The translations under genes were made by a program, and so were the position numbers. A model generated the notes under the pieces. That model worked only from the letters and a program-made list of their open reading frames with translations. It was not told the DNA's origin and did no database searches. From Leucoraja erinacea (lineage: Eukaryota), in contig NC_073380.1 in the NCBI RefSeq assembly GCF_028641065.1, positions 55,738,001 to 55,802,000 of the forward strand: 64,000 nucleotides of DNA, given 5' to 3'. The first letter of the stretch is position 1. Each line of letters begins with the position of its first letter. Positions 32,210 through 32,920 of this stretch are shown here, one piece after another.

Positions 32210-32920
32210 CTAGACCAACTGGACCCCTTGGTCCCCCAACGCAACCTGTTCCCCCAACGCAATATTCAACCACTCACCCACTGCCCCCACAGTAGGCCTG
32301 GTCCCCCAATGCAATCCGTTCCCCAACGCGATATTCCACCACTCATCTGTTCCCCCATATTCCAGCACTCACCCATAGCTCCCAACTGTGCAGAGGTGTA
32401 TCCCCAGCACCAAAGATTATAGAGGTCTATAATCTTTGCCCAGCATTGCCTCTCCCTCCTCTTACTTTGAGGACTTTAAAAATAATGCAATTGCCCCCTC
32501 ACATTCCTGTTGAGTTAAAAACTTGCTGGAAGGATTGAGTGTTGCTTGATTGCAACTTTGTTGCAAACTGGGCCAGCAAGGATTTGGATCCCAATAGCAA
32601 TTGACCCCTCCCCCTCCTGTTCATGTAAAAATTTGGTGGAAGGACTGAGTGTATCTCGATTGCATCTTTGTATGCAACTTTGTTGCAAGCTGGGCCAGCA
32701 AGGATTTAGCTCTTAAATTCTTCTTAAACTTGAAATTTTAAACTTAAAATTTATGAATGACTTGTGAAATATAACATCAATGTGAACAAAACTTTATAGG
32801 AACGACCGCGGGACAAAGGTAATGTGGTGCAAAAATGTCCTACCGTGTACCAATTTGGCGTAGGTCCCAGATCACATAAGCATAGATAGATAGAAACAAG
32901 ATGAGAGTTTTAATAATATA
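32210..32920 (-). mobile_element. Non-autonomous Helitron-like unit 1
   Basis: CTAG end at 32210 next to a ggaccc..ggtccc hairpin; opposite end caagatgagagttttaataatatata. Confidence 0.65.
32411..32438. mobile_element. 28-bp palindromic insertion with 8-bp TSD (candidate excision footprint)
   Basis: cccagcac|caaagattataga-gg-tctataatctttg|cccagcat. Confidence 0.7.

What the first reader, a model, noticed from the sequence alone, without database searches (positions are those of the whole stretch)
32403..32446. 28-bp CAAAGAT hairpin with an 8-bp target duplication: candidate P-element-like excision footprint
Seen: cccagcac|CAAAGATTATAGA-GG-TCTATAATCTTTG|cccagcat, a perfect 13-bp inverted repeat with almost no interior, between 8-bp direct repeats (7/8 identical). 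Established: P-superfamily transposons make 8-bp TSDs and have CA...TG ends. They cut with long staggered overhangs, so excision typically leaves about 15-17 nt of each terminal repeat at the donor site; hAT excision usually leaves none. Inference: this is the scar of an excised P-like element, which would imply a formerly active P/THAP9-type system in this fish lineage, whereas vertebrate P elements are mostly known as relics or domesticated genes. The alternative is an ultra-short MITE.
Basis: partly seen in the sequence, partly recalled or inferred. Interest (0 to 1): 0.75.

Follow-up and report, generated by a model that had tools for sequence, protein, structure and literature searches.

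The report
P-type transposon excision scars, cartilaginous fish
The 28-base hairpin is a real insertion and one of a dispersed family of 26-42-base hairpins, seen in this cartilaginous fish and in unrelated animal DNA, that are likely the scars left where a P-element-type jumping gene cut itself out, although the parent element and its enzyme were not found.

Summary
Confirmed: 13-bp arms, 2-bp centre, 8-bp duplication (7/8), reproduced in an independent assembly. Contigs of two species skip exactly hairpin plus one duplication (36 bp), the predicted empty site; 31-bp variants with other flanks reach about 45x and 350x single-copy depth. The same ends occur at 105 independent loci of animal DNA in metagenomes: 81 with 7-bp, 5 with 8-bp duplications, a GT-N3-AC target as for P-superfamily Galileo, lengths 26-42 bp, junctions enriched for microhomology; 0 of 13 microbial look-alikes have duplications. 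This is the anatomy of fly P-element end-joining products. Best reading: excision footprints of a P-superfamily lineage (0.65); arms of up to 20-22 nt in the metagenome families would need a longer cut than the fly's 17 nt. Not shown: any long parent or transposase (no genome held). Rival: mobile micro-MITE. The scan noted similar hairpins once before in another animal (e1-7275277); mobile P elements in fish are already known from zebrafish.

The parts
32403..32410 (+). Left copy of the 8-bp target-site duplication
   Evidence: Sequence; 7/8 identical to the right copy
32411..32438 (.). 28-bp hairpin element: two transposon ends joined tail to tail (read as 15 nt of one end + 13 nt of the other)
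   Evidence: the central GG recurs at positions 14-15 of the sister element, so it is read as part of the end (inference)
32439..32446 (+). Right copy of the 8-bp target-site duplication
   Evidence: joint 32410->32447 skips element plus this copy in contigs of X1 and X3
30284..30291 (+). Left 8-bp duplication of the sister element
   Evidence: 7/8 identical to 30324-30331
30292..30323 (.). Sister 32-bp hairpin element with the same CAAAGAT..TAGAGG start (16+16; last base differs from the expected G)
30324..30331 (+). Right 8-bp duplication of the sister element
32209..32926 (+). High-copy non-coding host repeat into which the element inserted; second diverged copy at about 33865-34510. Helentron/HINE-like by recall only
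   Evidence: 71-87% identity to the second copy; depth up to 10^5-10^6 over its 5' part in all 4 runs; no subterminal inverted repeat found by a 7-mer test

Best explanation
The hairpin is a real insertion with a target duplication, and it is likely the scar left when a P-superfamily cut-and-paste transposon excised from this site. Inferred steps: (1) a longer element with ends starting CAAAGATNNTAGAGG inserted and duplicated 8 bp; (2) its transposase later cut it out with a long staggered cut, leaving a single-stranded tail of end sequence on each flank; (3) the cell trimmed and joined the two tails by end-joining, often at a 2-4-nt microhomology, giving duplication - end stub - inverted end stub - duplication; (4) this happened in the germ line many times, so the scars are dispersed, vary in length, and the microhomology-favoured ones recur as identical copies. 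Shown: insertion, duplication, empty site, dispersed family, length scatter, microhomology bias (the last in the metagenome families only). Not shown: the parent, the enzyme, the cut.
For: Two members in the window, 28 and 32 bp, both with 8-bp duplications at 7/8. Empty site: skip of 36 = 28+8 at 32410->32447, one contig each in X1 and X3 at single-copy depth (20.7 vs 23.2; 42.8 vs 46.9). Dispersed: whole-hairpin contigs with 3 extra letters at depth 1032 (X1) and 16,500 (X3) whose depth does not continue into the right flank; loose ends at the hairpin edges in 5 and 3 contigs of X1. Same ends in 120 metagenome loci, 105 independent after 15 duplicates were dropped; among 105 hairpins with full flanks 62 exact and 81 near-exact 7-bp duplications, 3 exact and 5 near-exact 8-bp; random flank pairing 0.65% and 0%; 0 of 13 prokaryotic/viral pattern hits have one. 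Target half-site G (75/162) T (112/162) matches Galileo's GTANTAC, 7 bp with some 8 bp (PMC4168063); P makes 8, 1360 and Galileo 7 (PMC3698922). 93 distinct sequences among 106 hairpins, every length 26-40 present. Of all simple joins possible from the inferred end, those with microhomology >=2 are the ones seen: 5 of 7 vs 6 of 36 (p=0.008) and 3 of 4 vs 3 of 35 (p=0.008) in two subfamilies. Fly P junction tables show the same anatomy: 8-bp duplication, up to 17 nt of each end, microhomology or small insertions (PMC2895639, PMC5466332). Fewer 40-mers than an uncapped-deletion model predicts (4 vs 13.1, P=0.002).
Against: No long element with these ends was found: none in the 64-kb window, none in 182 kb of metagenome loci (one search found only a 42-mer and two compound sites), none in viral contigs. 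No P/THAP domain in 290 of 290 window ORFs >=65 aa or in 93 + 150 flank ORFs (525 of 675 shorter ones not scanned). Arms of 20-22 nt, perhaps 24, exceed the 17 nt of the only cut measured. One 31-bp form at about 350x depth and one 33-mer at 7 loci are also what an amplifying mini-element would give. Microhomology also marks the birth of true MITEs (PMC3814204). End templates were taken from the hairpins themselves, and 1 of 24 and 5 of 18 hairpins fitted no simple join. The pattern capped lengths at 40 and arms at >=13, and the 40-bp drop is not significant against a flat model (P=0.16). The tool marks the 36-bp joint 'between: not known'. Zebrafish Pdre2 ends are a different sequence, and zebrafish THAP9 gave larger flanking deletions in cell assays.
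Confidence: 0.65

Rival explanations
1. The hairpins are themselves mobile: ultra-short MITEs (28-42 bp) born by deletion from a P-like or hAT-like parent and moved in trans, each insertion making its own duplication.
For: Identical forms at many loci: a 33-mer at 7 of 106 loci; 31-bp forms at about 45x and 350x single-copy depth, each absent or rare in the other runs laid; no long parent seen beside them. Earlier scan note e1-7275277 left the same choice open.
Against: 93 distinct sequences in 106 with every length represented; the recurrent forms are mostly those with microhomology, including a lopsided 20+16 join; described P-MITEs keep about 100 bp of each end (PMC1562414) and the fly transposase binds 9-21 bp inside a 31-bp repeat (PMC7776569), which these lack.
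Confidence: 0.17
2. They are donor-site scars, but made by aborted gap repair or cruciform deletion of a longer element of any superfamily with 7-8-bp duplications (for example a hAT with 7-bp duplications), not by a long staggered cut.
For: Arms longer than 17 nt; aborted gap repair followed by end-joining is the main outcome of P excision in wild-type flies and is proposed for other superfamilies; Repbase holds hAT families with 7-bp duplications (PMC4455052); two compound sites with filler DNA (L074, L110).
Against: Lengths thin out at 40-42 bp and no intermediate 50-500-bp forms turned up in the window or the flanks; the target motif is Galileo-like. That hAT excision leaves no end sequence is recalled knowledge.
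Confidence: 0.15
3. Chance hairpin or a local quasi-palindrome/slippage event in the host repeat, with no transposon involved.
For: The same pattern occurs 13 times in prokaryotic and viral DNA, so such hairpins do arise without these elements.
Against: Those 13 have no duplication; two members in one window, empty site, and 86 of 105 animal loci with a 7- or 8-bp duplication; 0 in 60 simulations.
Confidence: 0.02

Closest known systems
Donor-site end-joining products of Drosophila P-element excision (P{wa} assay; PMC2895639, PMC5466332: passages and junction tables read)
   Same: Target duplication kept on both sides; stubs of both ends joined tail to tail; short microhomologies or small insertions at the joint; 8-bp duplication and 28-32-bp size in the window.
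   Different: Those are laboratory products of a known element with 17-nt tails; these are natural, dispersed and apparently fixed, with different end sequence, 7- or 8-bp duplications, arms up to 20-22 nt in the metagenome families, and no parent identified.
Galileo and 1360/Hoppel, P superfamily (PMC4168063, PMC3698922: passages read)
   Same: CA...TG ends (sequence; CA start of Galileo recalled), 7-bp duplications with occasional 8-bp, palindromic target with GT...AC consensus.
   Different: Galileo has very long repeats and different end sequence; flanking target positions differ (C at -4, G/A at -3, A at -1 here; AAN for Galileo); no footprints of this kind were mentioned in the passages seen.
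Zebrafish Pdre2 / zfTHAP9 (PMC10983969: passages read)
   Same: P-type element in a fish, 13-bp terminal repeats, 8-bp duplications, active transposase.
   Different: Terminal repeat sequence is different beyond the first two bases; about 50 copies; bony fish, not cartilaginous.
Anopheles gambiae P-MITEs (PMC1562414: passages read)
   Same: Non-coding P derivatives with 8-bp duplications.
   Different: 205-2450 bp with about 100 bp of each end and homogeneous family sizes; these hairpins are 26-42 bp and heterogeneous.

Membership tests
P superfamily DNA transposon | 7- or 8-bp target-site duplication | tested here: met
   8 bp at 2 of 2 window sites; 81 (7 bp) and 5 (8 bp) of 105 metagenome sites at <=1 mismatch
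P superfamily DNA transposon | Terminal inverted repeats with CA...TG ends | tested here: met
   Sequence, (sister element ends TA, read as one mutation); for metagenome loci the ends were imposed by the search pattern
P superfamily DNA transposon | Palindromic target preference with GT...AC core | tested here: met
   G 75/162, T 112/162 at the first two duplicated positions in the 7-bp class. The two window targets begin CC and do not show it; n=2
P superfamily DNA transposon | Autonomous partner encoding THAP + P-type DDE transposase between the same ends | not testable with these tools
   No genome held; no Pfam P/THAP hit in window or flank ORFs scanned; no query protein was available for a homology search
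P superfamily DNA transposon | Subterminal transposase-binding sites | not testable with these tools
   Needs the long parent
P-type excision footprint | Both ends kept as short stubs of variable length between intact duplications | tested here: met
P-type excision footprint | Junction microhomology or small insertions | tested here: met
   Two metagenome subfamilies, p=0.008 each at the level of distinct products; not testable for the window's own family, whose ends are not known beyond about 16 nt
P-type excision footprint | Stubs no longer than 17 nt (fly value) | tested here: not met
   Met by the two window members (13-16 nt) but not by the metagenome families, 20-22 nt
P-type excision footprint | Same site holds a long element in another allele or species | tested here: inconclusive
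   4 runs laid on 32040-32760 showed no filled long allele among the rows shown; most rows were cut and 15-nt end matches would not align
MITE | High copy number with uniform size and sequence | tested here: inconclusive
   Overall sizes not uniform (93 of 106 distinct), but single forms reach high depth
Helentron/HINE (host repeat) | Subterminal inverted repeats, 3' stem-loop, TT target (PMC4067079, passages) | tested here: inconclusive
   No 7-mer inverted match between the ends of either old copy; only weak stems; high copy, tandem arrangement and a terminal microsatellite-like tract are seen

The most novel reading that the evidence does not exclude
An undescribed P-superfamily lineage with CAAAGATNNTAGA ends has been active both in cartilaginous fishes (recently, with species-specific bursts) and in at least one unrelated animal group; its transposases cut with a longer stagger than the fly's (about 20-22 nt in some families), and its excision scars, likely tens of thousands per genome and outnumbering surviving elements, form a readable fossil record of germ-line transposition events and end-joining pathway choice.
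Probability: 0.35. Interest if true: 0.72.

Novelty: new variant of a known kind. Interest (0 to 1): 0.52.

Why it matters
P-element footprints are known from fly crosses; here they appear as a natural, dispersed class of tiny insertions that repeat annotators would likely miss. If the reading holds, stub lengths give the cleavage geometry of unstudied P transposases without biochemistry, junctions record germ-line repair in non-model animals, and cartilaginous fishes would hold a recently mobile, non-domesticated P family (a possible vertebrate tool and a relative of THAP9). It is tempered by the known mechanism, by zebrafish Pdre2, and by the missing parent.

Tried and rejected
Whole-genome scan: no G000; metagenome record L048 not held as a genome. 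Long elements in the window: a generic scan for CA-type ends with 8-bp duplications up to 15 kb gave the two hairpins plus three weak 9/12 pairs, rejected as chance; no facing pair of family ends other than the hairpins. Outward-facing near-matches at 60225/60284 rejected. Viral contigs: hairpin pattern 3 hits without duplication; two subfamily end patterns 0 hits; window-type end 28 hits, one poor facing pair, rejected. Prokaryotic genomes: 10 hits, none with duplication. Pfam: no P/THAP domain; a hAT dimerisation fragment 700 bp from the hairpin in L066 is read as an unrelated neighbour. The second host copy in the window lacks the hairpin but is too diverged there to count as a clean empty site. 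The longest-common-prefix estimate of arm length (up to 24) is inflated by shared junctions and was replaced by template fits (its per-locus microhomology test used only 16 of 23 and 9 of 18 loci and treats recurrent forms as independent, so one search is the one relied on). Whether the site is filled in organisms B, C, D could not be read from the rows shown. Literature: 10 searches counted (timed out); the listings showed no paper on these ends, on natural genome-wide P footprints, or on P elements in cartilaginous fish. PMC3093488 was not held. Repbase, Dfam, subscription papers and supplements were not searched, so the family may be catalogued there.

Full report
Observation. The sequence is as described: an 8-bp word at 32403-32410, a 28-bp element at 32411-32438 with perfect 13-bp arms, and a 7/8 copy of the word at 32439-32446. 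A contig from an independent run covers 32367-32580 without a difference. The window comes from a cartilaginous fish: its odd-skipped-related 2 exon is closest to shark proteins at 91%; that it is a skate or ray is my recall, not a result. The element lies about 23-26 kb downstream of that gene in repeat-rich non-coding DNA.

A second member. A scan of all perfect hairpins (arm >=9, loop <=12) gave 17; only two have an 8-bp flanking repeat at >=7/8, and both start CAAAGAT. The second, 30292-30323, is 32 bp. Both left arms run ...TAGAGG, so the 'GG loop' of the first is best read as positions 14-15 of the transposon end: 15+13 and 16+16 nt. Sixty simulated windows gave no motif pair with a duplication. 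Both members carry a few substitutions in duplications or arms, so they are not brand new.

Empty site and dispersal. Contigs of four runs (organisms A-D, coded) were laid on 32040-32760. One contig each in X1 and X3 jumps from 32410 to 32447, skipping 36 bases, which is the element plus one duplication. In X1 the filled site and the skipping contig both have single-copy depth (22 and 20.7; flank 23.2), so the empty site is probably another copy of the host repeat rather than an allele; the tool notes that letters between the two sides are not known. Contigs spanning the hairpin with three extra letters have depth 1032 in X1 (ACC behind 32425) and 16,500 in X3 (GAG behind 32421; also 13 in X11), and that depth does not run on into the right flank. 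If depth follows copy number these are 31-bp forms in roughly 45 and 350 places, different in different species; the tool warns that depth is no direct copy number, and absence from contigs is not proof. Most rows of that output were cut.

The same ends in other animals. The pattern CAAAGATNNTAGA-N0-14-TCTANNATCTTTG hit 120 loci in 23 of 64 parts of the metagenome collection (about 340 estimated). The flanks are animal DNA (laminin N, Mab-21, zinc-finger, INTS15 fragments) and share nothing with the window except the hairpins; the host was not identified. Fifteen loci were dropped as repeats of the same site, leaving 105 loci and 106 hairpins, one a 42-mer found in a flank. Of 105 with full flanks, 81 have a 7-bp and 5 an 8-bp duplication at <=1 mismatch (62 and 3 exact); random pairing gives 0.65% and 0%, no other length from 5 to 11 stands out, and 0 of 13 prokaryotic or viral hits have one. 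The 7-bp targets are palindromic, G then T at the first two positions, as reported for Galileo (GTANTAC, 7 bp with some 8 bp; PMC4168063, passages). P makes 8 bp, 1360 and Galileo 7 bp (PMC3698922, passages).

Footprint or mini-element. There are 93 distinct sequences among 106, covering every length from 26 to 40. Within subfamilies the interiors are truncated continuations of one end joined to the inverted other end, with arms of 13-22 nt (one recurrent 37-mer could also be read with a 24-nt arm). Enumerating all simple joins from the inferred end, the products with microhomology >=2 are preferentially seen: 5 of 7 against 6 of 36, and 3 of 4 against 3 of 35 (p=0.008 each), holding 14 of 23 and 10 of 13 assigned loci; 1 and 5 hairpins fitted no join. 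Templates came from the data, so the test is not fully independent. Lengths fall off at 40 (4 seen, 13.1 expected without a cap, P=0.002; not significant against a flat model, P=0.16). Fly P excision leaves 17-nt 3' tails and junction tables show the same duplication-stub-stub-duplication anatomy (PMC7776569, PMC2895639, PMC5466332; passages). Known P-MITEs keep about 100 bp of each end (PMC1562414; passages). Against this, high-copy identical forms fit a mobile mini-element, microhomology also marks MITE birth (PMC3814204; passages), and hAT families with 7-bp duplications exist (PMC4455052; passages).

What is missing. No long element and no transposase was found. No genome is held; the window has no other pair of these ends and no P/THAP domain in all 290 ORFs >=65 aa; 243 flank ORFs gave none, with 525 shorter ones unscanned; viral and prokaryotic collections gave nothing relevant. 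Assignment to the P superfamily therefore rests on ends, duplication length, target motif and scar anatomy; I put it near 0.75-0.8, and the full footprint mechanism at 0.65. It works like a P excision footprint; membership is not proven, and the 17-nt limit is not met by the metagenome families.

Comparison and novelty. The mechanism is known from flies, and a mobile P element with an active transposase is known from zebrafish (PMC10983969; passages), with different ends. Ten literature searches (listings only, as listed under Tried and rejected) showed no report of these ends, of natural genome-wide P scars, or of P elements in cartilaginous fish; repeat databases, subscription papers and supplements were not seen. 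PMC10045372 and PMC4067079 were seen as passages. An earlier unchecked note of this scan, e1-7275277, describes 32-bp hairpins with 7-bp duplications in thousands of copies in another animal; its sequence was not shown, so I cannot say whether the ends are the same. New here: a vertebrate case with an empty site, the same end motif in an unrelated animal group, 7- and 8-bp subfamilies side by side, and arm lengths that predict a longer stagger. Two scars in 63 kb would extrapolate to tens of thousands per genome, an inference from n=2. Verdict: real, likely P-type excision scars; new variant of a known kind; interest 0.52.

Noticed in passing
window 30826-31361: A 536-bp insertion in a SINE-like repeat, bounded by a 14-bp direct repeat (30812-30825 and 31362-31375); most of it (30863-31361) is a perfect 241-bp inverted repeat of a retroelement 3' fragment with a 17-bp loop. 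Looks like a very young fold-back retro-insertion.
   Followed up: partly
window 34516-34687, 19587-19806, 47858-48162, 21603-21803, 29256-29436: Several further long near-perfect palindromes with arms of 60-95 bp; none starts with CAAAGAT and none was tested for duplications beyond a look at the flanks.
   Followed up: no
L074 220-318 and L110 (minus strand, near 373): Compound sites: a 17-21-nt end stub, 18-45 nt of filler, then a complete hairpin, all inside one 7-bp duplication; may be templated insertions or local re-insertion and re-excision.
   Followed up: partly
L018 966-2015 (also L111, L113): A 29-bp hairpin plus 7-bp duplication (36 bp, 12 codons) sits in frame inside a 350-codon open frame with no Pfam match: a scar that would not break a reading frame.
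   Followed up: partly
L027/L046 hairpin: Interior GGAT gives an end that continues like the window's 32-bp member, but with a 7-bp duplication.
   Followed up: no
L080, L101, L115, L021, L103: The 8-bp duplications in the metagenome set fall in two end subtypes only, so duplication length tracks subfamily.
   Followed up: partly
window 5211-5960 and 8766-8972: Exons of odd-skipped-related 2.
   Followed up: yes
window 39443-43968 (minus): Broken element with reverse transcriptase and tyrosine-recombinase fragments, DIRS-like by recall; LINE fragments at 35515-37959 and 61746-62663.
   Followed up: no
window 7114-7642, 7939-8104, 12111-12242: Three runs of N, 827 bases in all.
   Followed up: no
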